DNA of 64,000 bases from Bacillota bacterium. GTDB lineage: Bacteria; Planctomycetota; UBA8108; UBA1146. Both the position numbers and the translations under genes were made by a program. Every line of letters starts with the position of its first letter. The first letter of the stretch is position 1. This document shows positions 19,817-52,501 of this stretch, one piece after another. A model generated the notes under the pieces. That model ran no database searches. It was not told where the DNA came from and saw nothing but the letters and a program-made list of their open reading frames with translations. The stretch spans positions 2,951-66,950 of the forward strand of contig QNYK01000023.1 in NCBI GenBank assembly GCA_003973385.1, given 5' to 3'.

Positions 19817-21751
19817 TCACAATTGTGATCCGCGCGGCTCAGGGTCCTTCTTCTCATCCGAATCCATCGCCTCGGTGACTCGTTCCTGGAAGGTATACCC
19901 CTTGATTCCGCCCTCGACGATGGAATACCGGGAGGCCACCCAGCCGAAGTACTTGTTGAGCAATGCCGACTCCGGAATATTTTCAGGATCGAACAGGAAC
20001 AGCAGTTCCTCGTTCGACGCGATATCCGGGATCATCAGTGGCAACATCCCAACCAGCGGTCTGAACATGTCCGCCACTTGACTGAGATTCTGCCCCATGT
20101 GGGTCATGGATATCGACCAGCCCTGGGTGGACTTGATCTTGGCCATCATCGCAGCAGTGCGCTTGTCGGAGCCGAACGCTTCTCCGTCCTCGTCATCGAG
20201 CAGACGCAGAGCCGCCTTCACATCGTCGACGGAAGTGGAAAAAATCAACCAGTCACCATCCATGGTCCAGGCAGGGATCACCGATGAACCCTGACCCGCA
20301 AACTCCGGGGGCACATCCCCGAGTGGATCAAAACTCCACACGTTCCGCCCCAGAAACTCTTGCTGCTCGATGGCTGGGCCCATCATCTCGGGGCCCGCAA
20401 GGCTCTCCATCAATTTTTCCCAGGGTCCTCGATCTCGGAGTTTGGCACAGATCACCACAGGTGGAGTGGAAGGTCCACCCATCATCGCCGCCATCGGATT
20501 GAAGGCCGATGTCGACGCATCCACAGGCGGAGTATAGGAACATATCGACCCCTCGATGGAGTCCACCAGTTCCATCACATCGACACCCGTCTGCAGTTTC
20601 ACCTCCTCGAGTCCCGCCTCCATCTCGGCCGCCATCTCTTCCGGATCTTGTTCGTTGATCACAGCCCCGATGGAAACGATGATGTCGAAGAGTTTCGAGA
20701 GTTCGAGACGCATCAGGCTGAAGGACGCTATGCCCTCGGGAACAAATCCCGGGATGCTGATATCAGAGTTTGCAGCCGGAATGATGCCCAGGATTCCCTT
20801 ACGGCCCTCGATTCCCACGATGGCATCGGCGCCGATACCATCCTCGGTGTAGTAGCCCCGACTTGCCATACCACTGATGGTCTCAAGGCCGATGGCGTCG
20901 ATGATCTTCGAAGGCTTGAACGCATCAGCAAATGTGTCGCCATCTTCTCCATCGAAACCGGGTTCAGGTGGGCCGCCACCTCCCGCAAACATGTCGAGCA
21001 TGGGGATCAGGTTCCACAGTGCATCGAGATTGAAATAGAGCCGAATCGAGCCTCTACGAAGATGCGTCTGGGCCAGTTGAAAGATGCGAGTGGAATCGAA
21101 TCGATCTCCCACCGCAGTTCCACCTTCGGCGAGATACTGCTCCAGGCTCATCTTGTTGGTTCCGATGACATGATGATCCTCGAACTGACCGACGAAGATG
21201 CCGACTCCGGGCATTTGTTCGATACCGGTGAACTCGATGTCTCCGATACTGAAGGTCCGCATCGGAGTTGGCTGCCCCCTTTCCTCCAGCACTTCTTTGA
21301 GCATCGAGAGGAAATTCTTGTGGGTGGCCCCGAACTCGGCAGGACCGTGAAAGTCAATCACCAGATCCGGCATCGGCATGCCCATGCTGGGATCCATCTG
21401 GTAGCCCAATCCGAAAACAAACTCACCGGTCATCTGGTCGGACATGCTGGAGAGATGCTCCCAGAAGGACTCCAGTTTTTGCTTCGCCTCGGGGTCGTCT
21501 TCGAGGCCTACGGCAACCAGTGCCCCGATCCCCGCCGCAAGTCGCTCGCCAATCTTCTGGATCGATGGCTCCTGCAGGAATTGGGCGATGTCGCTGTCTT
21601 TGTACTGATCACGATCGGCCTGCCAGTCGTCGACCGAGTAGACCAATACAGAGTATTTTCCCAGTTTGCCTCCACCTGCCTGTGCCTGATCGGTGAAACC
21701 GATCGATGTAGACACGGCAAAAAGCGTCAGCATCAGAATTCTGGATACCAT
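19817..21751 (-). CDS. Secreted hypothetical protein (~645 aa).
   Basis: Signal peptide MVSRILMLTLFAVSTSIGFTDQAQA. No catalytic motif recognised. Start assigned to the internal Met at 21751 to avoid overlapping the upstream protease gene. Confidence 0.5.
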   Translation of the reverse strand: MVSRILMLTLFAVSTSIGFTDQAQAGGGKLGKYSVLVYSVDDWQADRDQYKDSDIAQFLQEPSIQKIGERLAAGIGALVAVGLEDDPEAKQKLESFWEHLSSMSDQMTGEFVFGLGYQMDPSMGMPMPDLVIDFHGPAEFGATHKNFLSMLKEVLEERGQPTPMRTFSIGDIEFTGIEQMPGVGIFVGQFEDHHVIGTNKMSLEQYLAEGGTAVGDRFDSTRIFQLAQTHLRRGSIRLYFNLDALWNLIPMLDMFAGGGGPPEPGFDGEDGDTFADAFKPSKIIDAIGLETISGMASRGYYTEDGIGADAIVGIEGRKGILGIIPAANSDISIPGFVPEGIASFSLMRLELSKLFDIIVSIGAVINEQDPEEMAAEMEAGLEEVKLQTGVDVMELVDSIEGSICSYTPPVDASTSAFNPMAAMMGGPSTPPVVICAKLRDRGPWEKLMESLAGPEMMGPAIEQQEFLGRNVWSFDPLGDVPPEFAGQGSSVIPAWTMDGDWLIFSTSVDDVKAALRLLDDEDGEAFGSDKRTAAMMAKIKSTQGWSISMTHMGQNLSQVADMFRPLVGMLPLMIPDIASNEELLFLFDPENIPESALLNKYFGWVASRYSIVEGGIKGYTFQERVTEAMDSDEKKDPEPRGSQL

Positions 21752-21807
21752 GCTGGTATCTCCTTCCACGGGCAAATCACGGCCCGCAATGATCAGGGAA
21801 TTGCGGG

Positions 21808-22758
21808 TCAATCCCCGGGTTGGTTCTTTCTGGGGGGTGGAATGTATCGCACTCCCGTATTTGGTTGGCTTTCGTCAAAGAGAAAGGCCTCCCTACGATC
21901 GATGAAAAACTTCACCTGATCCAGCGGAATCGCAAAATTGAGCCCCTCGGATTGAAGAATCTTCATGTTCGTGACACCGATCACCTCGCCCGCCTCGTTG
22001 AAGAGTGCGCCTCCAGAATTTCCGGGGTTGATCGGAGTTGTGGTCTGGATGTAGACCTGACCCTCGAAAGAGCGATATGGATCAGAGATGATTCCCTCGC
22101 TCACTGTTCGCTCGAAGCCTCGCGGAGTTCCGACCGCGAACACCTTTTGACTGCGATCGAGCGATCCGGCAGCCGCAAACTTGACCGATTTCAGGGGTAG
22201 TTTGCTTGCATCCGGAATTCTCAACAGAGCCAGGTCGAGAAATGGATTGAGCGCGACGATCTCGACATTCTCGATCTGCTGCTTGCGAGCCCCACCGACC
22301 GCATCGTCCAGGTATACGGTGATTTGAATGTCCCTCTCTCCCTCGACGACATGCACATTCGTGATCACCAGTCCATCATCACTGATGATGAAACCACTAC
22401 CGAGACCGCCTCCCGCCAGCACCCGGACAACAGAGCGTCGGGCACGACTCTCCGCTTCCTGTAGAGGCAGCGGAATTCCCGGTCCGATCTGGTAAATGGT
22501 CTCCACATCCGGTCGCTCCAGTTCCTCCCCCGTGGCACTGATCTGCCGCCGGCTGATCACTGAATTGAGGGGTATCTGGATGATGGTGAGGCCGATGTCG
22601 ACGAATAGTTTTTTGTCGTCCTCCTTGATCACACTTCCGGAAACTGAATTGCCTCCGACCAGTTCGATCAACTCGCGATTTGCCGTGGGAGCGGCAGCGA
22701 TCTCGTCATTCGGGGGTGCCTGGGCTCCAGAGAGGGCAGCGACCAGGATGAATGCCAT
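21808..22758 (-). CDS. Secreted trypsin-like (S1C/HtrA-type) serine protease domain protein without PDZ.
   Basis: Signal peptide MAFILVAALSGAQA. TNVHVV (His), DLALLRI (Asp) and GNSGGALFN (Ser) form the catalytic triad context. Confidence 0.8.
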   Translation of the reverse strand: MAFILVAALSGAQAPPNDEIAAAPTANRELIELVGGNSVSGSVIKEDDKKLFVDIGLTIIQIPLNSVISRRQISATGEELERPDVETIYQIGPGIPLPLQEAESRARRSVVRVLAGGGLGSGFIISDDGLVITNVHVVEGERDIQITVYLDDAVGGARKQQIENVEIVALNPFLDLALLRIPDASKLPLKSVKFAAAGSLDRSQKVFAVGTPRGFERTVSEGIISDPYRSFEGQVYIQTTTPINPGNSGGALFNEAGEVIGVTNMKILQSEGLNFAIPLDQVKFFIDRREAFLFDESQPNTGVRYIPPPRKNQPGD

Positions 22759-28345: not shown

Positions 28346-28387
28346 GCAAGAAAAAGCGGGATCTGGCGATACCTCGCCAGATCCCGC
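28346..28387 (-). terminator. Rho-independent terminator for the 28415-30484 gene.
   Basis: Perfect 13-bp GC-rich stem GCGGGATCTGGCG/CGCCAGATCCCGC with a 6-nt loop. On the minus strand it is followed by TTTTTCTT, 28 nt after the stop. Confidence 0.6.
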
Positions 28388-28414
28388 CTGAACCTCATTG
28401 ACCGATATGATGCC

Positions 28415-30484
28415 TCAAGGGCAAGAATCGTAGTTCAGGCAGGTAATGGTGTCCGGAGTCGGATCCATACCGCAGGACTCTCCGGGCGCAGGGAGCGAGG
28501 ACGAGCCGAACAGATAGCCCAGCAGGGTCACTGGATCCGAGATGTCGATCTCTCCATCGTCATTGCAATCCACTGCCGATAGGCACGACGGATCCGGCTG
28601 GCCGCTGAACAGGAAACCCAGTGCCCTGACAGCATCGGCGATGTTCACAACGCCGTCATCATTGGGATCTCCCCTTCGAAAACTCGCCGATTCGCAACTA
28701 TCAGGAATCCCATTGGCATCTGCATCCGCTTCAGCACCACTGGCAATGTCGCAACTGTCGGGAATGCTGTTCGAATTGCAGTCTGCAGTCGTTCCCGCAT
28801 CGATCTCACAAACATCGATGGACCCGTTCCCGTTGCAATCATCGGCTATCCCCAGGTCAATCTCGCAGTTGTCGAGGAGCATGTTGCTGTTGCAATCTTC
28901 TGCGGTTCCCGCTGCGATTTCACACAGATCGGGAATGTTATCGAAGTCGCAATCGAAAACGGTTCCATTCTGGATGTCACAGGCATCGTGAACTCCGTTG
29001 CCATTGCAATCATTAGCTGCCAGCTGGCAGACGTCGGGTATCCCGTCTGCGTCGCAATCCTCGGCACCAGCTTCGATATCACAAGAATCTTCGACACCAT
29101 TTGCGTCACAGTCAGTGGTCGGGGTCTGGCAAGAATCAGGAATCAGATCGCCATCACAATCGACTTCAATTCCGGAAGCGATATCACAGGCATCCGGTTC
29201 TCCGTTATTGTTGCAATCGGTCGTGTTTCCGATGGCGCATTCACAGGAATCGACGATGAAGTTGCCGTTGAGATCGAGACTGGCGATGTCTGCAGGAACG
29301 ATCTTGAAGATCTCGCCACCAGACCAGTCGCAGATGTAGACCTCGCCGTAGGCATCCTGCCCGAATCCTGCGATACCGGTGATGCTCTGGGAGCCCGGAG
29401 GATTCAGTTCAGAACTTCTGGTCGTGAACTCGGTGACATTGGTTCCGTTGTACCGGAACGACCAGATCTGGTTGGAACACCAGTCTGCATAGAAGTAGAT
29501 GCCCTGCATATCTGGCATCGCACAGCCGCTGTAAACATTGCCGCCGGTGATCGAGCACCCGCTGCCGTGGTTGTAGACCTGTTGAGGATCGGTCAGGGCG
29601 CTGGAGTTGCAGGTACAACCGGACATGTTCGTACAGTTGTTGCCTTCCATGCAGCGCCAACCGTAATTTTCTCCACCTGGAGAACTCGCCAACTGGATGT
29701 TGATCTCTTCCCAGTTGTACTGCCCCACATCTGCGATGTAGAGGTCTCCGGTCAGTCTGTCGAAAGAGAAGCGCCACGGATTCCGCAGCCCGGTCGCCCA
29801 GATCTCATCGAGAGGTGCACCGGGACCGGCGAATGGATTATCTGCAGGGATCGAATAGGGGGTGCCACCATCGACATCAATCCGGAGCATCTTACCCAGC
29901 CGGGTATTGGGGTTCTGTCCATTGCCCTGGGGATCATTGGCGCTGCCACCATCCCCGAGCCCGATGTACAGGTAGCCATCGATGGGGCTGAATTCCAGCA
30001 TTCCACCATTGTGATTGGAATATGGCTGATTCTGAGTCAGTACGATCTGAGCACTGGATGGAATTGCCACATTTGGATTCGTAGAAGACACCGAGTAGCG
30101 AGCCACCGTCGTGTTCGAAGCATTGTTGGTGTAGTACACGTAGAAGTACCCGTTACTGGAGTAGTCCGGATGAAATGCAAGACCGAGTAATCCTCGTTCA
30201 TCGGCTCCGGAAGTGCCGCCCCCGACGATCGAGTTGATATCGAGGAATGGGGTCGAGATCAGTTGTGCGTTGGTCATGTCGTAGACGCGGATGGTCCCTT
30301 GCTGCTGAACGATGAAGAGACGTTCAAAATCCCCTGCTGGAGCCGTCACCAGTACAGGCCGGGAGACTCCACTGGCGATTCGCCGGGTCGAAAGCGGTGT
30401 CCCCCCTGCGTCGAGCGGAGGAGGTGAGACCAGCAGCAAAATCAGCAGAACGCCGATAAATCTCGTAAAAGCCATCTCGATCAC
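28415..30484 (-). CDS. Secreted PQQ/glucose-sorbosone dehydrogenase (GSDH)-type β-propeller protein with about 10 Cys/Asp-rich Ca-binding-like tandem repeats and a C-terminal dockerin-like domain.
   Basis: Signal peptide. GLLGLAFHPDYSSNGYFYVYYT and GDLYIADVGQ match GSDH propeller motifs. Residues 423-600 are ~19-aa repeats DC[ND]x[ND]GxxDxC[DE]Ixxg. Residues 605-660 are GDPNDDGVVNIADAVRALGFLF + DCNDDGEIDISDPVTLLGYLF, a duplicated dockerin-type Ca loop-helix. Confidence 0.8.
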   Translation of the reverse strand: MIEMAFTRFIGVLLILLLVSPPPLDAGGTPLSTRRIASGVSRPVLVTAPAGDFERLFIVQQQGTIRVYDMTNAQLISTPFLDINSIVGGGTSGADERGLLGLAFHPDYSSNGYFYVYYTNNASNTTVARYSVSSTNPNVAIPSSAQIVLTQNQPYSNHNGGMLEFSPIDGYLYIGLGDGGSANDPQGNGQNPNTRLGKMLRIDVDGGTPYSIPADNPFAGPGAPLDEIWATGLRNPWRFSFDRLTGDLYIADVGQYNWEEINIQLASSPGGENYGWRCMEGNNCTNMSGCTCNSSALTDPQQVYNHGSGCSITGGNVYSGCAMPDMQGIYFYADWCSNQIWSFRYNGTNVTEFTTRSSELNPPGSQSITGIAGFGQDAYGEVYICDWSGGEIFKIVPADIASLDLNGNFIVDSCECAIGNTTDCNNNGEPDACDIASGIEVDCDGDLIPDSCQTPTTDCDANGVEDSCDIEAGAEDCDADGIPDVCQLAANDCNGNGVHDACDIQNGTVFDCDFDNIPDLCEIAAGTAEDCNSNMLLDNCEIDLGIADDCNGNGSIDVCEIDAGTTADCNSNSIPDSCDIASGAEADADANGIPDSCESASFRRGDPNDDGVVNIADAVRALGFLFSGQPDPSCLSAVDCNDDGEIDISDPVTLLGYLFGSSSLPAPGESCGMDPTPDTITCLNYDSCP
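28685..29278 (-). repeat. In-frame tandem array encoding ~10 copies of a 16-19-aa Cys/Asp repeat (thrombospondin-type-3-like) within the GSDH-dockerin protein.
   Basis: Protein-level periodicity DCNNNGEPDACDIASG / DCDANGVEDSCDIEAG / DCNGNGVHDACDIQNG / DCNSNMLLDNCEIDLG / DCNGNGSIDVCEIDAG / DCNSNSIPDSCDIASG, and more. Confidence 0.7.
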
Positions 30485-33346: not shown

Positions 33347-34608
33347 ATCAAAGCATTGACCTCCTGATCGAGAATGTTGGAAGGCTGCTTCCCGGTCATG
33401 CGAAACCCGTCGAGGGAGTTTCGGTAGCGGTCGACGCAGGAAAGATCAAAGCTCTGGGACCGGCGGGAGACCTCGCCGGTCTTTTTGATGGGCGACAGTC
33501 CTTTGATGGCAGCGGTTCACTCCTGACTCCCGGCTTCGTCGACTCACACACTCACCTCGTGTTCGGCGGCAATAGAGCTGGAGAGTTCGTACACCGTTGC
33601 CAGGGTAGAGACTACGAACAGATCGCAGCCGAAGGGGGTGGCATCAGAGCCTCCGTCAAGATGACGCGAGAGGCGAGCCTCGATCAACTGGTCGAAGATG
33701 CCAGGCCCAGACTGGCGCGAATGATCGCAGCTGGATCCACCACCATCGAGATCAAGAGCGGCTACGGTCTCGATGCTGCAACTGAACTGAAGATGCTGCG
33801 AGCCATCCGTCAACTCGCCGAAGAACACCCGATCGAGATCGTGGCCACTTTCATGGGAGCTCACGAGGTCCCCGATGAATGGCAACATGATCGAGCGGAA
33901 TATGTACGGATCATCTGCGAGGAGATGATCCCTCAGGTCGCGGAGGATGGGCTGGCCGAATTCTGCGATGTGTTCTGTGAAAGAGGGGTTTTTGACCCCG
34001 CTGAGAGCACCCGGATTCTCCAGGCAGGCCTCGAACACGGCCTCAAACCCAAGATACACGCCGACGAACTCGCTGCCTCTGGAGGCTCGCTTGTTGCGGG
34101 CGAGATCGGTGCAGTAAGCGCAGATCATCTGATGCAGATCACACCCGATGGGATCGATGCCCTCAGAAGTGCTTCGGTGGTCGCAACACTACTTCCCGGG
34201 ACCACTTTCTATCTACGTAAATCCGGTTACGCTCCGGCTCGGCCGCTGATCGATGCCGGGCTCGATCTGGCCATCGCAACGGACAGGAATCCTGGTTCCT
34301 GCACCATCGAAAGCATGCTGTTCATCGCGGGATTATCCGTGATGCATCTGGGTTTGACTCCTGGAGAAGCACTCCGTGCAGCAACGTATGGAGGGGCCAT
34401 GGCACTCGACCGTGAAAAGGTCTGCGGGTCCATCGAAGAAGGAAAAAGAGCAGATTTGATCCTGTGGAATGCTCCAGACGAGGATGTACTGATTCACGAG
34501 TTCGCCAACGAGGTGCCACGCACCGTCTTCGCCGCAGGCAGGGTCGTCTCCGATTCTCAAGGTGACAGAACTGAAAGATCCGGTGTCCATCCGGACCAGG
34601 GGGTTTGA
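33343..34608 (+). CDS. hutI: Imidazolonepropionase.
   Basis: [32 protein letters not shown] are amidohydrolase HutI motifs. Start overlaps the hutU stop. Confidence 0.9.
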
Positions 34609-36824
34609 ACAAGATGTCCAAGTTCATCGATCGACTTACCCAGGCTATGAAAGAACAAGCATGGGGTGAGTACGAAGAGGCGTGGCTCGACGCCATCGAA
34701 GGCGAGAATGTTCGCTTTTCGGAATACCTCAATGCGACCAGCAATGCGATCACCGCCGGGCACGGAGAAAGAGCAGGTCAGATGATGGAGTTGATTCTCC
34801 AATCAGGACTGACGGACGAACTGACTCCTGACAAGAAGTTAGAGTTTCATGAAGCGCTCGCTTGCAGCCTGCCGCGGAACAAGGATGCCCGCGAGACGCT
34901 GCTCGAACTGTACAGAAAACAGTTCGGGCACATCGAAGGATTTGACAATTGCGTCGAAACTTCAGGTTTGATGGATGGCACCAGACCGGCCGAAGTGATC
35001 CCGCTGTTCAAGCGTATGGTGCACTATCAGCCGGGATCGTATGTCAAACACCGCTCTGGCTGGGGCGTTGGCGTTGTGAAGGAACTGGACCCTGCCCTGG
35101 GAACCGCAACCGTTGATTTCGAGAAAAAGGATGGTCATTCCGTAAAGCTGGAAGCACTGCCGCAGATCTGTGACCCGCTCGAAGCGGATCACTACCTGGT
35201 ACTCGGCTGGCAACGCCCGGAGGAGTTACGGCGAATCGCCGAGGACGAACCGGGCGAATTGATCAAACTGGTACTGAGAACCAGTAGCCGGCCGATCCCG
35301 TTGGCGCGAATTCGGGAAGCGTTGGTCGGAGTCGCGGTTCCAGCCACATCCTGGAGCAAGTGGTGGTCCAGAGCCCGAACCGCGATCAAGAAGGATCCCC
35401 TGGTCGGTCTCTCGGGCGGAAAAAACAACGAGTTGTACCTGCTCGATGGACCCGAAGCACTCGCCACCAGCATCGAGCGGCGCTTCTCTGGTCTCAGCCC
35501 CAAGGACCGCCTCAAGACGATTCGAGAGTGCTTGAGCGAGATTCCGGATGATCAACATCCGCTCCTCGATGGCCAGTTCAAGATACTGCGCCGTGACATC
35601 GTCCGTGGAGACCTCGACCATGCGAATCGAGTCTCCGCACTCTTGCTCCTGCGCGATCACGCACCCGATGGCGAGGAAGAATCTGCCATCGGAGCACTGG
35701 TCTTGAGAGCGGGCCACTGCGCAGATCTGCTCAACTCTCTCGGCCGCGATGACGATTTGCGGGATACGCTGGCGCTGATCCGGGAATTGAACCCTGACGA
35801 CTGGGTGCAATTGCGAAGCGAACTGATCCTGCAAGCAGATGATTCTCTGCGCGAACTTGTACTCAACCTGCTTGACGATTCTGGCGAACTGGCGATTGCT
35901 GATCAGATCGCATCCAGCGTGTTACATAGACCACGCAGATCACCGCTGTTCTTCCTCTATCTGGCACGTTGCTCCGCCTCGGAAAATTCTACGAAGTTCC
36001 CATCACTGAAAGGTGCTTCGGCTCCCGATCTCTTCCGCCAGGCTGCGGCACTGTTTGATCGGCTCTCACTCGAAAATGAGGGATCAGCGAAGAACCCAGG
36101 GCTTGAAATCGCAGTGAAGCGATACAGGCAACACCTCTCGGTGAAGCCATTTGCGCTGCTGAGTAGGGTTCTCGATCGATGTGGCCTGACAGATGCTCGC
36201 GAGATCTACATGCAACTTGCAGGCTCGCGCAGCATCAGCGACTCGAACCTTGACAAGGCCAAGGCCATCATCTTGCGCAAATTCCCCAAGGTACTCGCAG
36301 GACAACCGAGCCGCGGAAGTGTTGCAGTCGCAGAAAGTGCCATCTACTCGACCGAGTTTGGGCTATCCAAAGTTCAAAGCGAACTCGAAGAGATCCGAAA
36401 TGTGAAACTTCCCGAGATATTCAAGGCGATCGGGGATGCCGCAGCACTGGGAGACCTGAGCGAAAATGCAGAGTTCACCTCTGCCATCGAGGAACGAGAA
36501 AACCTGAATCGCAAGGTGATGGAACTTCAGGGAGACCTGGATCGAGCCCGCGTCATCGACCCCGAGGAAGCGAGCATCGATCAGATTGGTCTCGGCAGCC
36601 AGATCCGTTTCCATAACCTCTCTACCGATTCAGTGGCTGAATACTGCCTGCTCGGGCCGTGGGACGGCGGGCCTGACGAGGGGGTACTCTCCTATCTCTC
36701 CCCGCTCGGGAAGGCGATGCTACAGAAAAAGGTCGGTGATCAGTTCGATGTCAAACTGCCGACCGGTGTCCATAGCATCAAGATACTGGAGATCAGTCAG
36801 GGCAAGGTTCCAGAGCAGATTTAG
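34605..36824 (+). CDS. 739-aa protein with a C-terminal GreA/GreB transcript-cleavage-factor module and a ~580-aa uncharacterised N-terminal region.
   Basis: The last ~160 aa align with GreA: coiled coil with GDLSENAEF (cf. GDLKENAEY), ARVID, and FKBP-like tail SPLGKAMLQKKVGDQFDVKLPTGVHSIKILEI. Start overlaps the hutI stop. Confidence 0.7.
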   Translation: MNKMSKFIDRLTQAMKEQAWGEYEEAWLDAIEGENVRFSEYLNATSNAITAGHGERAGQMMELILQSGLTDELTPDKKLEFHEALACSLPRNKDARETLLELYRKQFGHIEGFDNCVETSGLMDGTRPAEVIPLFKRMVHYQPGSYVKHRSGWGVGVVKELDPALGTATVDFEKKDGHSVKLEALPQICDPLEADHYLVLGWQRPEELRRIAEDEPGELIKLVLRTSSRPIPLARIREALVGVAVPATSWSKWWSRARTAIKKDPLVGLSGGKNNELYLLDGPEALATSIERRFSGLSPKDRLKTIRECLSEIPDDQHPLLDGQFKILRRDIVRGDLDHANRVSALLLLRDHAPDGEEESAIGALVLRAGHCADLLNSLGRDDDLRDTLALIRELNPDDWVQLRSELILQADDSLRELVLNLLDDSGELAIADQIASSVLHRPRRSPLFFLYLARCSASENSTKFPSLKGASAPDLFRQAAALFDRLSLENEGSAKNPGLEIAVKRYRQHLSVKPFALLSRVLDRCGLTDAREIYMQLAGSRSISDSNLDKAKAIILRKFPKVLAGQPSRGSVAVAESAIYSTEFGLSKVQSELEEIRNVKLPEIFKAIGDAAALGDLSENAEFTSAIEERENLNRKVMELQGDLDRARVIDPEEASIDQIGLGSQIRFHNLSTDSVAEYCLLGPWDGGPDEGVLSYLSPLGKAMLQKKVGDQFDVKLPTGVHSIKILEISQGKVPEQI

Positions 36825-45493: not shown

Positions 45494-47842
45494 CTACCTG
45501 TCTGCGGACCCATCCGGGTTGCCGTCTTCATCGATCAGAAAATCACCGCCACCAGGAATGGTCCTCTGCAGGGCAGGTAACAGCACCAGGGCGCCGATCA
45601 TGTTGCCAGCAAACATGAAGCAGAGCAGCACTCCCATGTCAGCCTGCAACTTCAGATCAGAGAAGATCCAGGTCGCCACGCCCAGTGCCAGCGTCAATCC
45701 TGTCACCAGCACCGCGTTCCCGGTTCGCTGCAGTGAAATCAGAAAGGCCCTCTCCAGGTTCGCCCCGGATCGTCTGGCTCGAAGCAGGTGTGAAGTGATG
45801 TAGATGCCATAATCGACACCGATCCCGACCCCGAGTGCGGCCACCGGCAAGGTCGAGACCTTGAGACCGATACCGAAGACGACCATCAACGCGTAGCAGA
45901 GGACGCTGACCAGCACCAGCGGCAAGATCACGCAGAGGGTCGCCCGGATGCTACGGAAGGCGAGTAACCCGAGCACGATCACCACCAGATAGATGGTGAT
46001 GAGCATCTCCAGCTGGGCTGCAGATACGACCTGATTGGTCGCTGCCATGACGCCGACATTTCCGGACGCCAGACGAAACTTTGCATCTTCAGAGCCAAGC
46101 TCTGCAGCGTATTTCTCGACAGCATCGGTGACCCTGACGATCGTCTCGGCCTTGTGGTCCTCGGTGAAGATCAAGACTGGCAAGACACTTGCGTCCGAGT
46201 TGAGCAGTCCGGTGGATGTCTCGATGCTGCTGAGTGATTGTGCCAGCATCTCGCTGTGTCTCGGCAGTTCTCGCCACTTCGGTGAGCCCTCACTCCAGGC
46301 TGCTGCGAGAATCCGAGCCACCTGGGGCAGCGAGATGGTCGAGCGAACCCCTTCGATGTTGGAGATCCTCCACTGGAACTCATCGATACGATCCATCACA
46401 TCATGGTCGATACTCGCATTGGGCTTCGTCTCCACGATCACCGTGATCAGATCGACTCCGATGGAGAAGGAACGGGCGATACTCCGAGTGTCGATGTTAT
46501 AGCGAGATTCCTTGCGCAGTTCCGGAAGCCCCTCATTGGCATCTCCGATGATGACTTCATCGACTCTCTGCCAGCCCCAGAACAACCCGACGATGGCAAT
46601 CAACACCAGCGAGATGGCCACCGGAAAACGCGTACATCGGGAGACGATGCTCCAGAGTTTATCTCGAACGGGTGTCGGTCGGGCGAGTTGCTGAGTGAAC
46701 GAATCCGCGACACGCATTCCACCCAGCAGCAGCGGCAGCAATACGAAACCGGTCGCAAAGATCAGTACCACGCCGACTGCAGACATCACGGCGAGGTGCT
46801 GGATCACACCGATCTCGATGAAGAGCAAGGTCAGGAAACCGACTGAATCGCTGCACAATGCCACAAAACCTGGCAGGAGTAGTTTTCTGAAGGCGTTCCG
46901 GGCTGCTGTGGCAGGATTAGCTCCCGCCACCAACTCGCCGGCAAATGCCCCGGTCATCTGGACCCCGTGCGACATGCCGATGGCAAAGATCAGAAACGGC
47001 ACCAGGATCGACATCGGGTCGAGTCCGTAACCGAGCGTCGTGATCGTTCCCAGCGTCCAGATCACCGCCAGCATCGAGCACGCCATCGGCAGCAATGTCA
47101 GTCGCCAGGAGCCGGAAAAGACACGAACCAGGAATGCGGTCACGAGCAGGGCAACACCGAAAAAGAGAACCACCAGCGTGGCACCGCCTGCGATGTCTGA
47201 AATTGCTTTTGAGAACCCGATGATATGGATATCGATCTCGTCATCGACGAATCGTGAGCGAATCATCTCCTCGAGTCGATTCCCTACCTCGATCGGATTG
47301 GGTCTCTCTTTCGTGTAGGGGTCCTTCTCGACCAGTGTCGCATAGACCATCGCCGCTGAAAAATCGTTGGCGATCAGCCGCCCCACCTGCCCCGAGTAGA
47401 GGACATTTTCGCGCACCTGTCTGGCCATCTCCTCCGTCGGAGCCCATTCGGCGGGGACCACGTTGCCGCCCTCGAAGCCACCCTCGACGATCCTCACGAA
47501 TCGAACATTTGGAGTGAAGATGGATTTCACGGAGGTGCGATCGATCCCGGGCACCTCAGCGAGTGCCGCAGTCACCTGTCGCACCTTCTCGAGGGATGAG
47601 GGGTCGAACAGATCTCCATCGATGGCACGCACCGAGATCAACAGTCGGTTCGCCCCTCCGAACTGCTCCCTGTGCTCGACGAAGGTCTCCATGTAGGGAT
47701 GCTTCAGCGGCAACTGCTTCTCGAAGCCTGCATCGATGGCCAGACGGGCAGCCTGAACTGTCAACAGCACCGAGACGAGAGCCAGCAACCACAACATCAG
47801 GCGACGATTCTCGAAGATGAGTTTTTCGAGCAGGGTCGTCAT
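45494..47842 (-). CDS. RND-superfamily exporter (COG1033/MMPL-like), 12 TM helices with two periplasmic loops.
   Basis: 782 aa, two six-helix bundles each preceded by a large loop. Start overlaps the stop of the upstream BNR gene. Confidence 0.8.
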   Translation of the reverse strand: MTTLLEKLIFENRRLMLWLLALVSVLLTVQAARLAIDAGFEKQLPLKHPYMETFVEHREQFGGANRLLISVRAIDGDLFDPSSLEKVRQVTAALAEVPGIDRTSVKSIFTPNVRFVRIVEGGFEGGNVVPAEWAPTEEMARQVRENVLYSGQVGRLIANDFSAAMVYATLVEKDPYTKERPNPIEVGNRLEEMIRSRFVDDEIDIHIIGFSKAISDIAGGATLVVLFFGVALLVTAFLVRVFSGSWRLTLLPMACSMLAVIWTLGTITTLGYGLDPMSILVPFLIFAIGMSHGVQMTGAFAGELVAGANPATAARNAFRKLLLPGFVALCSDSVGFLTLLFIEIGVIQHLAVMSAVGVVLIFATGFVLLPLLLGGMRVADSFTQQLARPTPVRDKLWSIVSRCTRFPVAISLVLIAIVGLFWGWQRVDEVIIGDANEGLPELRKESRYNIDTRSIARSFSIGVDLITVIVETKPNASIDHDVMDRIDEFQWRISNIEGVRSTISLPQVARILAAAWSEGSPKWRELPRHSEMLAQSLSSIETSTGLLNSDASVLPVLIFTEDHKAETIVRVTDAVEKYAAELGSEDAKFRLASGNVGVMAATNQVVSAAQLEMLITIYLVVIVLGLLAFRSIRATLCVILPLVLVSVLCYALMVVFGIGLKVSTLPVAALGVGIGVDYGIYITSHLLRARRSGANLERAFLISLQRTGNAVLVTGLTLALGVATWIFSDLKLQADMGVLLCFMFAGNMIGALVLLPALQRTIPGGGDFLIDEDGNPDGSADR

Positions 47843-50332: not shown

Positions 50333-52180
50333 CTAGAATGAGTAACTGGCGGTGAGGGACATGAAGTCACGGTCGTTCCGCAGATTGTAGCGGCTCGCAC
50401 CAAACGAGTTCGTGTACCCGAGTTTCACATCCCACAGTCCAAGCGCACCGACAGTCACCGAAGCACTGACCGTCTTCCTTCCTGCTATGAAGTTCGCCAG
50501 CGGCACCGGGGATGTGCCCTCGATATCGTGAGAGAAGGCGACGATGGGTGCGAGGGACAGCGAGCCGATGGCATTGTAGTACGTCGCCTTGGCCAGCACC
50601 TTGTACCCCATCGACAACTGGTCAGGGAACGCCGAGAGCGGTTCAGCTGCGGGCTGCACCGGCACACCGGGTGAGTTGAAGAAGTCATTTCCACTGGTGT
50701 AGGTGCCCGTTGCCTCGTAGCGGAAGTTGGCCACATCCTCCATGTCGTTGACGAACATGGCTGCGAACTCGCCCACCATCGCCACCTGGTCTGCACCGAG
50801 AATCCCCGCCATCACCTTGGTGAGGCTGAACTGTGCCGTGGCGACATCCTTGCGGACAAAACCATGGATCGTCTCACCGTAATCGAAGGACCCGAGGGCG
50901 CCCTGGCCAAATACGCTGTTGAGAGGTGAGAGCGCCGCGAACAGGATCTCCACATCATCGACCTGCAGAGGCTGGTCGAGGTGCAGCGACGTCTCCCCTT
51001 GCACTGCTATGCCGGTATCGAAGAGGTCGGTATTGAAACTGACCCCGAAGGTGGTGATATCTTCCGGGTACTCGAGGTAGTACTCGGCGCTAGCGCCGTA
51101 ATCCCCCGCAGCAACTCCTGCAGCGGTTCCGGTGACCGCAGTGATGATCGGCAGGCGGCTGTGCAGATTGGTGTAAAAGAACCCGAACTCTGTGCCACCC
51201 AGTTCTTCAGCAAACCATCTGGCCGAGATTCCGTACTGCCCCAGGTCACTGGGAGTCCGATCACCGGTGCGCTGTACAGCCACTCCGATCGGGGAGTTGT
51301 AGCCGGGCACCGATGCGCCGGGAGGGTTATCGATGATATAGACATCATCTGCGGTTCCGGGGATCCCATCCGGGCCATCCGATTGCCCGAAACCGAGCAG
51401 CACGAAGTTCCCCCCTGGGCTGGCGATATCGGTGACGGAGAAGAAGGTCCCGATCGGTTCGAGACGAGTCGGACGCCAGCCGAGCTGGTAAAAGCCCTGC
51501 AACGAGACGGTGTCGGAAAGATCGTAATCGAACTTGGCCGCCGGAATCGGCACCAGCGCTTCCTTGATCTCGGAGCCGGCTGCACGAAGCTTCGACAGGT
51601 CGACCGGATTGACGCCATTCAATCCATTCTGGATGAAGGTGCTTTCACCCCAGTTGATCACCTGACTTCCTACGGTCAGGGTCAACGGGTTGTCACGGCC
51701 ACCGAAATCACGACGAATGTACGCATCGAGTAGTACAGCGTTGAGTCCGGCGAAGCGTTCTGCTGTGCCGCTGAGCGCGGGGCGACCCGCTTTCAGAACA
51801 TCGCCCTCGCGGATGGCAAAGTCGGAGAAGTAGAAGCCCCTGATAAACACGAAGTAATCGTCGTAGTCGAACGAGATCTCGTGCAGCACCTTGAGGTTCT
51901 CGGAGAAGATGTCCCCTGCATCGTAGTTGAGGTTTCCATCGTCACCGTTGAGAGAATTCCCGGTTCCACCGTTGGCGGTTCCGATGAGGCTGAGGTCAGG
52001 ATCAGCGACGCGCCATGAAACTCCTACTGATATGGTTGTGTCGAAGTGGCCCGAAACCTTGCCATTGAGAAGATCGAACTCGATCGCCCCCAGAAACGCT
52101 GGAGTCAGGGTAAAGACGGCCATGAGCAAGGCAGCTTGCAGCCGCACTCTCCTGGCCAGCGGGGAAACGCATCCTCGCAT
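50333..52180 (-). CDS. DUF1302-family outer-membrane β-barrel protein.
   Basis: Signal peptide from the MRGCVS start (AAGGAGG RBS before the ATG at 52180). Alternating amphipathic β-strand pattern. C-terminal ...LTASYSF ends in Phe, as in OMPs. Confidence 0.65.
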   Translation of the reverse strand: MRGCVSPLARRVRLQAALLMAVFTLTPAFLGAIEFDLLNGKVSGHFDTTISVGVSWRVADPDLSLIGTANGGTGNSLNGDDGNLNYDAGDIFSENLKVLHEISFDYDDYFVFIRGFYFSDFAIREGDVLKAGRPALSGTAERFAGLNAVLLDAYIRRDFGGRDNPLTLTVGSQVINWGESTFIQNGLNGVNPVDLSKLRAAGSEIKEALVPIPAAKFDYDLSDTVSLQGFYQLGWRPTRLEPIGTFFSVTDIASPGGNFVLLGFGQSDGPDGIPGTADDVYIIDNPPGASVPGYNSPIGVAVQRTGDRTPSDLGQYGISARWFAEELGGTEFGFFYTNLHSRLPIITAVTGTAAGVAAGDYGASAEYYLEYPEDITTFGVSFNTDLFDTGIAVQGETSLHLDQPLQVDDVEILFAALSPLNSVFGQGALGSFDYGETIHGFVRKDVATAQFSLTKVMAGILGADQVAMVGEFAAMFVNDMEDVANFRYEATGTYTSGNDFFNSPGVPVQPAAEPLSAFPDQLSMGYKVLAKATYYNAIGSLSLAPIVAFSHDIEGTSPVPLANFIAGRKTVSASVTVGALGLWDVKLGYTNSFGASRYNLRNDRDFMSLTASYSF

Positions 52181-52501
52181 CCGGTACACCTCCTTGCTGA
52201 GTGGTACGCACCTCAAGACCTCCAGGAGTAGTGCCAGACTTCCAGCGAGCTCTCCGAAAGATCGTCCGGCCTGAAGAGTAGATGGGATGATCCCGGCACG
52301 TTGGCAGAGAAGGACCCACCTCCTCGCCACACCGATATCGCACCCCTCCTCACCCGGACTGAAGCGTCTACGAGAAGGGAAGATACGGGATCGAGAGGGT
52401 GACAGACAAGAGAGATCTGCTCTGGCATTACCAAGTCGGCTGGCCCAGAGTGTCTGCAGTGGTAGCCAGTCGCGAGGGAATCGTCACCGGAGGAGACCTG
52501 G

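What the first reader, a model, noticed from the sequence alone, without database searches (positions are those of the whole stretch)
28415..30484. Secreted GSDH-type β-propeller fused to ~10 Cys/Asp Ca-binding-like repeats and a dockerin-like tail
Three modules are read directly from the translation. The first is a PQQ/glucose-sorbosone-dehydrogenase-like propeller (residues ~40-400). The second is a run of ~10 repeats of consensus DC[ND]x[ND]GxxDxC[DE]Ixxg (residues 423-600); each has a Cys pair bracketing an Asp/Asn-rich loop, reminiscent of thrombospondin type-3 Ca-binding repeats. The third is a C-terminal pair of dockerin-type loop-helix segments (GDPNDDGVVNIADAVRALGFLF and DCNDDGEIDISDPVTLLGYLF). 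This looks like a cell-surface-tethered oxidoreductase or lectin-like module with a flexible Ca-dependent stalk. The repeat array is also a likely site of length polymorphism.
Basis: partly seen in the sequence, partly recalled or inferred. Interest (0 to 1): 0.6.

Follow-up and report, generated by a model that had tools for sequence, protein, structure and literature searches.

The report
Secreted propeller on calcium-loop stalk, dockerin tail
This gene from a marine Planctomycetota bacterium encodes a secreted sugar-dehydrogenase-like propeller joined, through a stalk of ten tiny cysteine-clamped acidic repeats that probably bind calcium, to a dockerin-type anchoring tail; the enzyme and tail are ordinary, but the stalk repeat is a very abundant motif that the main domain databases do not model.

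Summary
The ORF at 28415-30484 (minus strand, 689 aa) has the three modules described, plus a signal peptide and a Cys-rich C-terminal extension.

- **Propeller:** it passes Pfam GSDH easily (140.8 bits). It belongs to the branch closest to Hedgehog-interacting protein. It keeps the catalytic His and the PQQ Arg-Asn pair but lacks the C-terminal Arg pair of classical PQQ enzymes.
- **Repeats:** ten D-C-x8-C units plus a degenerate unit 0. No Pfam, NCBIfam or PDB sequence matches them, and TSP_3 fails. A profile-profile comparison links them to the second loop of bacterial TSP3 repeats. With a deep alignment AlphaFold gives pLDDT 94.6 (loop, 7-residue helix, linker), and Foldseek finds no PDB analogue. 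The repeat occurs in 9,666 protein clusters, always with extracellular domains.
- **Tail:** it is dockerin-like (27.2 bits when isolated; dockerins top the PDB hits) and obligately C-terminal.
- **Not supported:** the "length polymorphism" idea. Thirteen species keep 10 units, there is no DNA repeat, and omega is about 0.03-0.14.

Calcium binding, enzymatic activity and a cohesin partner remain inferred. Verdict: a correct reading of a modular surface protein, with moderate interest because of the uncatalogued repeat.

The parts
28415..30484 (-). Whole ORF, 689 aa from GTG (probably 686 aa from the ATG at 30475), including the stop codon at 28415-28417
   Evidence: ORF listing. Full-length homologues at 97-45% identity in Planctomycetota MAGs. 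N-terminus comparison with P0001.
30407..30484 (-). Sec-type signal peptide, residues 1-26 (MIEMAFTR / FIGVLLILLLVS / PPPLDA, then GG)
   Evidence: Read from the sequence. Orthologues vary freely here (22-44% identity) but all converge on [LV]DA followed by GGTPLSTRR. AF2 models a helix at residues 3-18. No dedicated signal-peptide predictor was available.
29291..30403 (-). Six-bladed GSDH/HHIP-type beta-propeller, residues 28-398. It carries H158, R234-N235 and E259-E260, and a Cys-rich loop at 278-292.
   Evidence: Pfam PF07995 at 140.8 bits. PDB sequence search: HHIP at E = 1.7e-37, Asd/sGDH at 1e-10 to 1e-17. AF2 pLDDT about 90. Foldseek: HHIP at 1e-27, Asd/sGDH at 1e-21 to 1e-18. Alignment to E. 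coli YliI.
28691..29275 (-). Repeat stalk, residues 404-598: degenerate unit 0 (DLNGNFIVDSCEC) plus 10 units of consensus D-C-[ND]-x-[ND]-G-x-P-D-x-C-[DE]-I-A-x-G. It holds 49 acidic residues, no Lys or Arg, and 21 Cys.
   Evidence: Unit positions. Composition. No Pfam, NCBIfam or PDB sequence match. AF2 of residues 492-567 with a 149-sequence alignment gives pLDDT 94.6. 9,666 cluster representatives carry the repeat. hhalign to TSP3 units.
28505..28681 (-). Dockerin-type module, residues 602-660: two 12-residue D/N loops (DPNDDGVVNIAD and DCNDDGEIDISD), each followed by a helix
   Evidence: Dockerin_1 at 21.7 bits in the full protein and 27.2 bits isolated. Family profile against the PDB: type I dockerin 2y3n_B at E = 1.5e-6, plus about a dozen more dockerins. 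AF2 helices at 615-626 and 649-659.
28418..28504 (-). C-terminal Cys-rich extension, residues 661-689 (…LPAPGxxCGxDPTxDxLxCxxYxxCP). C671, C682 and C688 are invariant, as is C634 inside the dockerin.
   Evidence: Alignment A2 of 20 tails. The module ends within 4 residues of the protein C-terminus in 140 of 153 carriers. AF2 pLDDT is below 50 here.
28354..28389 (-). Intrinsic-terminator-like hairpin (16-bp stem, 10 G-C pairs, T-rich tail), 26 nt after the stop codon
   Evidence: Consensus scan. This is a pattern match only, not shown to function.

Best explanation
The gene encodes a Sec-exported envelope or surface protein of an uncultured marine Planctomycetota bacterium, built from four modules.

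1. **Propeller.** The N-terminal six-bladed propeller belongs to the glucose/sorbosone-dehydrogenase (GSDH) family, in the branch nearest to Hedgehog-interacting protein. It keeps the catalytic His and the cofactor-binding Arg-Asn pair. It most likely oxidises, or at least binds, a sugar or glycan outside the cytoplasm.

2. **Stalk.** The propeller is held away from its anchor by eleven short units. Each unit is an EF-hand/TSP3-type acidic loop, with D/N at positions 1, 3, 5 and 9 and D/E at position 12, and Gly at position 6. Cysteines sit at positions 2 and 11, and a 7-residue helix follows the loop. I infer that each loop binds one Ca2+, which is plentiful in seawater, and that the two Cys form a disulfide clamp. 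The array would then be a stiff, protease-resistant rod rather than a floppy linker.

3. **Dockerin.** The C-terminal duplicated Ca-loop/helix module tethers the protein to a partner on the cell surface.

4. **Cys extension.** The terminal four-Cys extension stabilises the dockerin module.

The architecture, family placements, conservation and predicted fold are shown. Ca2+ binding, disulfide topology, PQQ dependence, substrate and docking partner are inferred.
For: - **Architecture and family:** Pfam GSDH at 140.8 bits. HHIP and Asd/sGDH are the best sequence and fold matches.
- **Active-site residues:** H158, R234-N235 and E259-E260 are invariant in 24 orthologues and align to the NHFGG, IRNP and DEIN motifs of E. 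coli Asd.
- **Ca-loop register of the repeat:** consensus from 4,192 units is D91, C100, N65/D24, x, N78/D11, G64, [VI], P62, D90, x, C100, [DE]84.
- **Charge:** 49 acidic and 0 basic residues in 195 aa.
- **Ordered fold:** pLDDT 94.6 and pTM 0.76, with the helix starting at loop position 9 as in EF-hand and dockerin exiting helices.
- **Relation to TSP3:** hhalign probability 93%, P = 2.6e-7; 55%, P = 1.2e-4 after removing circular windows; controls 0.1-0.5%. 12 of 19 canonical TSP3 units in these proteins have a D-C-x8-C second loop.
- **Extracellular context:** the repeat co-occurs only with extracellular domains such as FG-GAP, beta-helix, HYR, PA14, lectin and peptidases.
- **Dockerin:**
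- **Purifying selection on every module:** omega 0.03-0.14, with the array's dN about equal to the propeller's. Units keep positional identity.
Against: - No metal or cofactor binding was tested or can be computed with these tools.
- The Arg pair that binds the PQQ carboxylates in sGDH and Asd (RxR before the last blade) is replaced by S-I-T in the whole clade, as in non-enzymatic HHIP.
- No PQQ-synthesis, cytochrome or cohesin gene lies in the window.
- The TSP_3 and EF-hand HMMs do not reach threshold on the repeats.
- hhalign of the unit against the dockerin loops is weak (probability 4.8%).
- The Cys count is odd in the array (21) and in the tail (5), and unit 0 and unit 10 each lack one Cys. 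A simple intra-unit scheme therefore cannot be the whole story.
Confidence: 0.6

Rival explanations
1. The propeller is a non-catalytic binding (lectin- or receptor-like) module, as in Hedgehog-interacting protein. The protein would be a surface adhesin or ligand trap rather than an oxidoreductase.
For: HHIP is by far the best solved-structure match by sequence (E = 1.7e-37 against 1e-10 to 1e-17 for enzymes) and by fold. The PQQ-carboxylate Arg pair is replaced by the HHIP-like S-I-T/GFGxD signature. No PQQ-synthesis or electron-acceptor gene is nearby. The physiological electron acceptor for a surface-tethered dehydrogenase is unclear.
Against: The catalytic His, the Arg-Asn pair (lost in HHIP, which has H-D) and the acidic EE pair are invariant across 24 orthologues. 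CcSDH also lacks the canonical PQQ residues yet is PQQ-dependent (PMC4133262). An invariant R356 lies near the missing pair and could substitute for it.
Confidence: 0.3
2. The C-terminal dockerin-like module with its Cys extension is not a cohesin-binding dockerin. It would be a lineage-specific C-terminal secretion, sorting or cell-wall-anchoring domain that happens to be built from two EF-type loops.
For: It lies at the extreme C-terminus in 140 of 153 carriers. It occurs on hundreds of unrelated secreted proteins (455 hits). It carries a conserved four-Cys extension that is absent from cellulosomal dockerins. EF-hand pairs score almost as well as dockerins (SCaMC-1 at E = 3.4e-5). No cohesin was found in the window.
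Against: No known sorting-domain model matches (NCBIfam: none at E <= 10). There is no hydrophobic or charged terminal segment. Dockerin_1 passes its cutoff on the isolated tail, and the top PDB hit is a dockerin. Cohesin/dockerin pairs have been reported in Planctomycetes ('planctosome'; PMC6461901). Paralogues carry a weakly cohesin-like insert (21.1 bits).
Confidence: 0.3
3. The repeats are only a disulfide-rich acidic spacer with no specific metal sites.
For: No Ca-binding HMM reaches threshold on them. Some units depart from the loop consensus, for example DCNSNMLLDNC and DCDFDNIPDLC, which lack Gly at position 6.
Against: There is 84-91% conservation of D/N/E at exactly positions 1, 3, 5, 9 and 12 over 4,192 units. 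There are no basic residues among 49 acidic ones. There is a profile-level link to the Ca-binding TSP3 repeats.
Confidence: 0.12
4. The array is a rapidly evolving, slippage-prone contingency region.
For: Unit number differs among distant homologues, from 0 to 17, and up to 74 in giant proteins.
Against: No DNA tandem repeat is detected. There are 10 units in every orthologue of 75% identity or more, across about 13 species-level MAGs. Positional identity of units is kept: 12.8 of 16 residues match on the diagonal against 7.7 of 16 off it. Omega is 0.136.
Confidence: 0.04

Closest known systems
Soluble PQQ-dependent aldose/glucose dehydrogenases (E. coli Asd/YliI 2G8S, A. calcoaceticus sGDH 1C9U, P. 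aerophilum 3A9G); Pfam PF07995 GSDH
   Same: Six-bladed propeller, secreted. It keeps the catalytic His (NHxGG), the Arg-Asn (RNP) that binds the PQQ quinone oxygens, and the acidic (D/E)EI motif.
   Different: Only 19-24% identity. The RxR pair for the PQQ carboxylates is absent. There is an extra four-Cys loop at residues 278-292. The NCBIfam sGDH subfamily model is far below its cutoff (51.5 against 434.6 bits). The protein is fused to a stalk and a dockerin.
Hedgehog-interacting protein (HHIP) beta-propeller (2WFX, 3HO5, 7PGM)
   Same: It is the best solved match by sequence (E = 1.7e-37, residues 34-388) and by fold (Foldseek E = 2.5e-27, 27-29% identity). It shares the DERGLL and GFGED...GE.YI signatures.
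   Different: HHIP has lost the Arg-Asn pair (it has H-D), is a metazoan ligand-sequestering protein, and is followed by EGF domains rather than Ca-loop repeats and a dockerin.
Thrombospondin type 3 repeats (Pfam TSP_3 PF02412; bacterial TSP3 PF18884)
   Same: Acidic DxDxDGxxDxxD-type Ca loops, with an NG[IV]PD core and Cys residues tying the loops. The profile-profile match is in register. The two repeat types sit next to each other in the same proteins, for example P0138, P0135 and P0144. The second loop of many bacterial TSP3 units is itself D-C-x8-C.
   Different: The period is 19 residues with one loop, not about 36 residues with two. The DNCP...NPxQ connector is replaced by a 7-residue helix. 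Asn is preferred over Asp at positions 3 and 5. The TSP_3 HMM gives no hit. No thrombospondin or COMP chain is found by profile search or Foldseek.
Type I dockerin (Pfam PF00404) of cellulosomal enzymes; non-cellulosomal dockerins, including the proposed planctomycetal 'planctosome' (PMC6461901)
   Same: Two 12-residue Ca loops, each followed by a helix, about 33 residues apart, at the C-terminus of a secreted enzyme.
   Different: The HMM score is borderline in the full-length protein. There is a conserved extra Cys (C634) and a 29-residue extension with three invariant Cys. The host is not cellulolytic, and no cohesin partner has been identified.
Pfam DUF7151 (PF23657)
   Same: Positions 25-41 of this 46-residue model align to exactly one D-C-x8-C unit in relatives, for example P0012 'DCNANGVLDACDISA'. 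Two of 40 repeat-bearing proteins match at E = 1e-9.
   Different: There is no hit on the query array at E <= 10, and hits on most arrays are sub-threshold. The model is not a model of the repeat as such.

Membership tests
GSDH / six-bladed quinoprotein sugar dehydrogenase (PF07995) | Profile HMM score above the curated cutoff | tested here: met
   140.8 bits against a cutoff of 25, residues 51-352.
GSDH / six-bladed quinoprotein sugar dehydrogenase (PF07995) | Six-bladed beta-propeller fold | tested here: met
   AF2 pLDDT about 90 over residues 30-398. Foldseek to HHIP, Asd and sGDH gives E = 1e-27 to 1e-18, with TM up to 0.83 on the target.
GSDH / six-bladed quinoprotein sugar dehydrogenase (PF07995) | Catalytic His (sGDH His144) and the Arg-Asn that binds PQQ O5/O4 (sGDH Arg228/Asn229) | tested here: met
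   H158 and R234-N235 are invariant in 24 orthologues and align to the NHFGG and IRNP motifs of YliI. Residue roles are taken from PMC6881789.
GSDH / six-bladed quinoprotein sugar dehydrogenase (PF07995) | C-terminal Arg pair binding the PQQ carboxylates (sGDH Arg406/Arg408; YliI R-I-R) | tested here: not met
   It is replaced by S-I-T (residues 367-369) in the query and by non-basic residues in all orthologues. The alignment in the last blade is anchored by the following G.DG/GE.Y.. motif.
GSDH / six-bladed quinoprotein sugar dehydrogenase (PF07995) | PQQ binding and sugar oxidation | not testable with these tools
   This needs biochemistry.
sGDH subfamily (NCBIfam TIGR03606 non_repeat_PQQ) | Score above the curated cutoff | tested here: not met
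   51.5 bits against a cutoff of 434.55.
Dockerin type I (PF00404) | Profile HMM score above the curated cutoff (22.9 bits) | tested here: inconclusive
   21.7 bits in the full-length protein and 27.2 bits when residues 601-689 are scanned alone. About a quarter of the tail homologues carry a precomputed PF00404 hit.
Dockerin type I (PF00404) | Duplicated 12-residue Ca loop (D/N at positions 1, 3, 5, 9, 12), each followed by a helix | tested here: met
   DPNDDGVVNIAD with helix 615-626, and DCNDDGEIDISD with helix 649-659. The family profile's top PDB hit is dockerin 2y3n_B at E = 1.5e-6.
Dockerin type I (PF00404) | Ca-dependent binding to a cohesin module | not testable with these tools
   No cohesin was found among 30 window ORFs scanned or by motif. 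The rest of the genome is not available. A cohesin-like insert in paralogues is sub-threshold (21.1 against 24.1 bits).
Thrombospondin type 3 repeat (PF02412) | Profile HMM score above the curated cutoff (25 bits) | tested here: not met
   There is no TSP_3 hit at E <= 10 on the protein or on the isolated array. In relatives the model hits only the neighbouring canonical units.
Thrombospondin type 3 repeat (PF02412) | Two-loop unit of about 36 residues with a DNCP...NPxQ connector | tested here: not met
   The unit is a single loop with a modal period of 19, and there is no DNCP motif.
Thrombospondin type 3 repeat (PF02412) | Homology detectable at profile-profile level | tested here: inconclusive
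   hhalign probability is 93.4% with P = 2.6e-7. After excluding TSP3 windows whose second loop is D-C-x8-C, it is 55% with P = 1.2e-4. Controls give 0.1-0.5%. The TSP3 set was small (19 and 7 windows).
EF-hand (PF00036, PF13499 and related) | Helix-loop-helix with a 12-residue loop, and score above cutoff | tested here: not met
   Only sub-threshold hits were found (16.8 bits or less). The units have no entering helix.
Known C-terminal sorting domains (NCBIfam models such as PEP-CTERM, T9SS CTD, LPXTG) | Match to any curated sorting-signal model | tested here: not met
   NCBIfam gives 0 families at E <= 10 for residues 601-689.

The most novel reading that the evidence does not exclude
The D-C-x8-C unit may define a distinct structural repeat class that is not yet catalogued: a disulfide-stapled, single-loop, Ca2+-binding 'half-TSP3' solenoid. 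No solved analogue was found by Foldseek or by profile search. On this reading, Planctomycetota and some other marine bacteria use it on the order of ten thousand times as a rigid stalk in surface proteins, often together with a lineage-specific dockerin-plus-Cys-knot tail. That tail would be the docking handle of a phylum-wide surface-display system, the hypothesised 'planctosome'.
Probability: 0.3. Interest if true: 0.65.

Novelty: new variant of a known kind. Interest (0 to 1): 0.42.

Why it matters
The protein itself is one more secreted GSDH-family propeller with a dockerin. PGAP already names its orthologues 'PQQ-dependent sugar dehydrogenase'. The useful outcome concerns the stalk.

The stalk is a 19-residue repeat present in about 9,700 protein clusters at 50% identity, with up to 74 copies per protein. 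Pfam, NCBIfam and the PDB do not model it. It nevertheless folds with very high predicted confidence and has the hallmarks of a Ca2+ site clamped by a disulfide.

A family model for this repeat would annotate large unassigned stretches of planctomycetal giant surface proteins. If Ca binding is confirmed, the repeat would be a compact, seawater-tuned rigid spacer of interest for protein engineering.

The dockerin subtype with its conserved Cys extension, found on hundreds of proteins, gives a concrete handle for testing whether planctomycetes assemble cohesin-dockerin-type surface complexes.

Tried and rejected
- **TSP_3, TSP3_bac and EF-hand HMMs on the array:** no hits, or only sub-threshold ones.
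- **NCBIfam on the array and on the tail:** nothing at E <= 10.
- **Array profile against PDB sequences:** 0 hits at E <= 10.
- **Foldseek of the confident repeat model against the PDB:** 0 hits at E <= 10.
- **hhalign of the unit profile against the dockerin tail:** the loops are in register, but probability is only 4.8%. I do not use this as evidence of homology.
- **Literature search for the motif strings** (DCNGNG, NGIPDEC and others): 0 papers.
- **Peer et al. on non-cellulosomal dockerins:** not held in the library.
- **DNA tandem repeats in the array:** none.
- **Synteny as a functional clue:** the block TruD-GreA-HutI-HutU-IspH-GSDH-HK-amidohydrolase-FG-GAP-trypsin is conserved in 13 related MAGs and lost at 60% identity. 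It consists of unrelated housekeeping genes, so I read it as lineage collinearity.
- **Cohesin-like insert in paralogues P0024, P0032 and P0048:** Pfam Cohesin at 19.7-21.1 bits against a cutoff of 24.1, in one of three. The top PDB hit is a cohesin, but at E = 0.22. It remains a lead.
- **Model coordinates:** not exposed to scripts, so Cys-Cys distances and ligand geometry could not be measured.
- **Preprint on lanthanide-binding six-bladed PQQ enzymes:** it concerns the AA12-like clade, not this one.
Full report
**1. Observation**

The ORF listing shows a 689-aa ORF at 28415..30484 on the minus strand, starting at a GTG. The 97%-identical protein P0001 starts at the ATG three codons downstream (MAFTRF…), so the real start is probably at 30475. 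The window has 55-64% G+C with nothing unusual at this locus.

The translation contains ten D-[CA]-x8-C units, starting at residues 423, 442, 458, 476, 492, 511, 530, 549, 568 and 587. Their periods are 19, 16, 18, 16 and then 19 five times. A degenerate unit 0 precedes them (DLNGNFIVDSCEC, residues 404-416), and two dockerin-like loop-helix segments follow. The region holds 10 C-x8-C pairs, against a mean of 2.0 and a maximum of 9 in 20,000 composition-preserving shuffles.

**2. The propeller**

Pfam GSDH (PF07995) matches residues 51-352 at 140.8 bits against a cutoff of 25. The NCBIfam sGDH subfamily model is far below its cutoff (51.5 against 434.6 bits).

Against solved structures, the best match is not a bacterial enzyme. 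It is human Hedgehog-interacting protein, at E = 1.7e-37 over residues 34-388. Asd, sGDH and their relatives follow at 1e-10 to 1e-17. The AlphaFold model is confident over the propeller (pLDDT about 90), and Foldseek gives the same ranking: HHIP at 1e-27, then Asd/sGDH at 1e-21 to 1e-18.

I aligned the protein to E. coli Asd/YliI, taken from NC_000913, with diverse homologues. The results are mixed:
- The catalytic His (NHNGG, H158), the Arg-Asn pair that binds the PQQ quinone oxygens (GLRNPW, R234/N235) and the acidic EE pair (E259/E260) are present, and invariant in 24 orthologues.
- The R-x-R pair that binds the PQQ carboxylates (YliI RIRDV, sGDH R406/R408) is replaced by S-I-T, followed by the HHIP-like GFGxD…GE.YI motif.

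Residue roles come from PMC6881789. PMC4133262 notes that HHIP and the fungal enzyme CcSDH both lack several canonical PQQ residues, yet CcSDH is PQQ-dependent. The missing pair therefore lowers the case for cofactor binding but does not exclude it. HHIP has lost the Arg-Asn pair and this protein has not. For that reason I favour an enzyme over a pure binding module, at about 2:1.

**3. The repeats**

The isolated 197-aa array matches no Pfam or NCBIfam family at E <= 10. A profile of eight orthologous arrays (A3) matches no PDB sequence at E <= 10.

The repeat is nonetheless abundant. The A3 profile finds 9,666 representatives of 50%-identity clusters at E <= 1e-3, and 1,572 at E <= 1e-30, among 1.84 billion proteins. 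These include giant proteins of up to 5,582 aa, and up to 74 units per protein.

Over 4,192 units the consensus is D91, C100, N65/D24, x, N78/D11, G64, [VI], P62, D90, x, C100, [DE]84, [IL], A, x, G, with a modal period of 19. Oxygen-bearing side chains therefore sit at positions 1, 3, 5, 9 and 12, with Gly at 6. This is the register of EF-hand, dockerin and TSP3 Ca2+ loops, and the two Cys sit at positions 2 and 11. The query array has 49 acidic residues and no basic ones in 195 aa.

Proteins carrying the repeat combine it with FG-GAP, beta-helix, Laminin_G, HYR, PA14, C-type lectin, M14 and S8 peptidases, phosphatases, TSP_3 and dockerin domains. All of these are extracellular. Named sources are mostly Planctomycetota and Phycisphaerae, with a few from Verrucomicrobia, Gemmatimonadota and Proteobacteria.

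*Relation to TSP3.* In P0138, P0135 and P0144 the TSP_3 HMM hits canonical DxDxDGxxDxxDNCP units that lie next to the D-C-x8-C units, not on them. I harvested 19 canonical bacterial TSP3 units from the retrieved proteins. Twelve of them have a second loop written D-C-[ND]-x-[ND]-G-x-G-D-x-C.

hhalign of a 300-sequence profile of three-unit windows against these TSP3 units gives probability 93.4% and P = 2.6e-7, with the loops in register. A reversed control gives 0.1%. After removing the windows with a D-C…C second loop, the match drops to 55% and P = 1.2e-4, against 0.5% for a column-shuffled control.

I conclude that the repeat is probably a TSP3 derivative. It keeps one loop per unit and replaces the DNCP…NPxQ connector with a short helix. 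The evidence is moderate because the TSP3 set was small. Pfam DUF7151 contains one such unit at its positions 25-41, but it does not hit the query.

*Structure.* In the full-length model, built from 24 sequences, the array reached only pLDDT 43-68. I then modelled residues 492-567 with a deep, in-register alignment of 149 diverse four-unit windows (A6). AlphaFold gave mean pLDDT 94.6 and pTM 0.76. Each unit is a loop (positions 1-8), a helix (9-15) and a 4-residue linker. The helix begins where the exiting helix of an EF-hand or dockerin begins; in the same protein the dockerin helices start at loop positions 10 and 11.

**4. Evolution of the array**

No DNA tandem repeat is detectable in the array. 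All orthologues of 75% identity or more keep 10 units. More distant ones have 10-14, and the wider propeller family has 0-17.

Orthologues occur in about 13 species-level Planctomycetota MAGs, mostly from marine or stratified waters. At 76-84% overall identity the array is 77-83% identical and the propeller 80-89%. Each unit matches its positional counterpart: 12.8 of 16 identical residues on the diagonal against 7.7 off it, for the query against P0006.

Against the closest orthologue (L002), dN/dS is 0.029 for the propeller, 0.136 for the array, 0.085 for the dockerin and 0.095 for the tail. At larger distances the array's dN equals the propeller's. The array is a conserved structural element, not a polymorphism hotspot.

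**5. The tail**

Dockerin_1 scores 21.7 bits in the full-length protein, just under the 22.9 cutoff, and 27.2 bits when residues 601-689 are scanned alone. A 20-sequence profile of the tail (A2) has a type I dockerin as its top PDB hit (2y3n_B, E = 1.5e-6). About a dozen other cellulosomal dockerins follow, interleaved with EF-hand pairs.

The tail has four invariant Cys: C634, C671, C682 and C688. It also has a conserved terminal motif, CGxDPTxDxLxCxxYxxCP. The same profile finds 455 proteins, nearly all from Planctomycetota or metagenomes. In 140 of 153 full-length occurrences the module ends within four residues of the C-terminus. No NCBIfam sorting-signal model matches it.

A cohesin/dockerin 'planctosome' has been proposed for freshwater Planctomycetes (PMC6461901). 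Here no cohesin was found in the window. Paralogues P0024, P0032 and P0048 carry a 150-aa insert between the repeats and the dockerin, with a sub-threshold Cohesin match (19.7-21.1 bits against 24.1) and a top PDB hit to a ScaB cohesin at E = 0.22. This is a lead, not a result.

**6. Genomic context**

The gene lies between ispH upstream and a hybrid histidine kinase downstream, all on the minus strand. Hut genes, amidohydrolases, an FG-GAP protein and a trypsin-like protease are nearby. A strong terminator-like hairpin follows the stop codon by 26 nt.

The gene order is collinear in 13 related MAGs and lost at 60% identity. I read this as shared ancestry, not an operon. The rest of the window is housekeeping.

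**7. Verdict**

The corrections are as follows:
- The propeller is of the HHIP-like branch, with an incomplete PQQ site.
- The repeats fail the TSP_3 model but are probably TSP3-derived half-repeats with an ordered fold.
- The dockerin is a distinct, obligately C-terminal subtype with a Cys extension.
- The array is conserved, not polymorphic.

Overall this is a new variant of known kinds of module. Interest is moderate, and it rests on the abundant, unmodelled repeat.

Noticed in passing
Proteins P0024, P0032, P0048 (paralogues; insert of about 150 aa between the repeats and the dockerin): GSDH-propeller paralogues carry an extra domain with a sub-threshold Pfam Cohesin match (19.7-21.1 bits against a cutoff of 24.1). 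Their top PDB hit is a ScaB cohesin, but at a non-significant E of 0.22. If the match is real, cohesin and dockerin coexist in one protein family of these bacteria.
   Followed up: partly
window 29236-29275 (residues 404-416, unit 0) compared with orthologues in alignment A1: There is a clade-specific Cys rearrangement in unit 0: DLNGNFIVDSCEC in the query clade (no Cys at position 2, new Cys at position 13), DCDGNFIDDACEI in others, and DCNDNFIVDSIEF in a third group. The last unit always lacks Cys at position 2. The array (21 Cys) and the tail (5 Cys) each have an odd count, so at least one disulfide must link modules, or a Cys is free.
   Followed up: partly
Proteins P0361-P0510 (for example P0361 at 3,867 aa, P0421 at 5,582 aa): Giant proteins carry up to 74 D-C-x8-C units. 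In most of them the repeat region has no Pfam annotation.
   Followed up: partly
Proteins P0135, P0138, P0209, P0430 and others: 12 of 19 canonical bacterial TSP3 units have a second loop of the form D-C-[ND]-x-[ND]-G-x-G-D-x-C. These are hybrids between TSP3 units and the single-loop repeat, which suggests how the 19-residue unit arose.
   Followed up: yes
window 30475-30484: The longest ORF starts at a GTG (30484), but the orthologue P0001 starts at the ATG three codons downstream. An AAAGAG motif lies 8-9 nt upstream of that ATG.
   Followed up: partly
window 34605-36824 (+): This 739-aa ORF has GreA/GreB N- and C-terminal domains only in its last 160 residues (581-731). The 580-residue N-terminal part has no Pfam hit. 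Either the TTG start is over-called or this is an unusually extended GreA-like protein. The full length is conserved at 57-90% identity in the syntenic MAGs.
   Followed up: no
window 299-2005 (-), 2002-3426 (-), 19817-21811 (-): Three long ORFs (568, 474 and 664 aa) have no Pfam family at E <= 1e-5.
   Followed up: no
window 45494-47842 (-) and 50333-52330 (-): An MMPL-family transporter and a DUF1302 protein (510 bits) lie close together.
   Followed up: no
Proteins P0022-P0049 (Chloroflexi / Anaerolineales, 767-903 aa): Close propeller homologues (about 48-51% identity over the first half) appear to contain two tandem GSDH propellers and no repeats or dockerin.
   Followed up: no
Loci L028-L031 (Gemmatimonadota chromosome CP070758.1; an uncultured proteobacterium MAG): The dockerin-type tail and the D-C-x8-C array (56% identity over residues 423-597 in L031) also occur outside Planctomycetota.
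   Followed up: no
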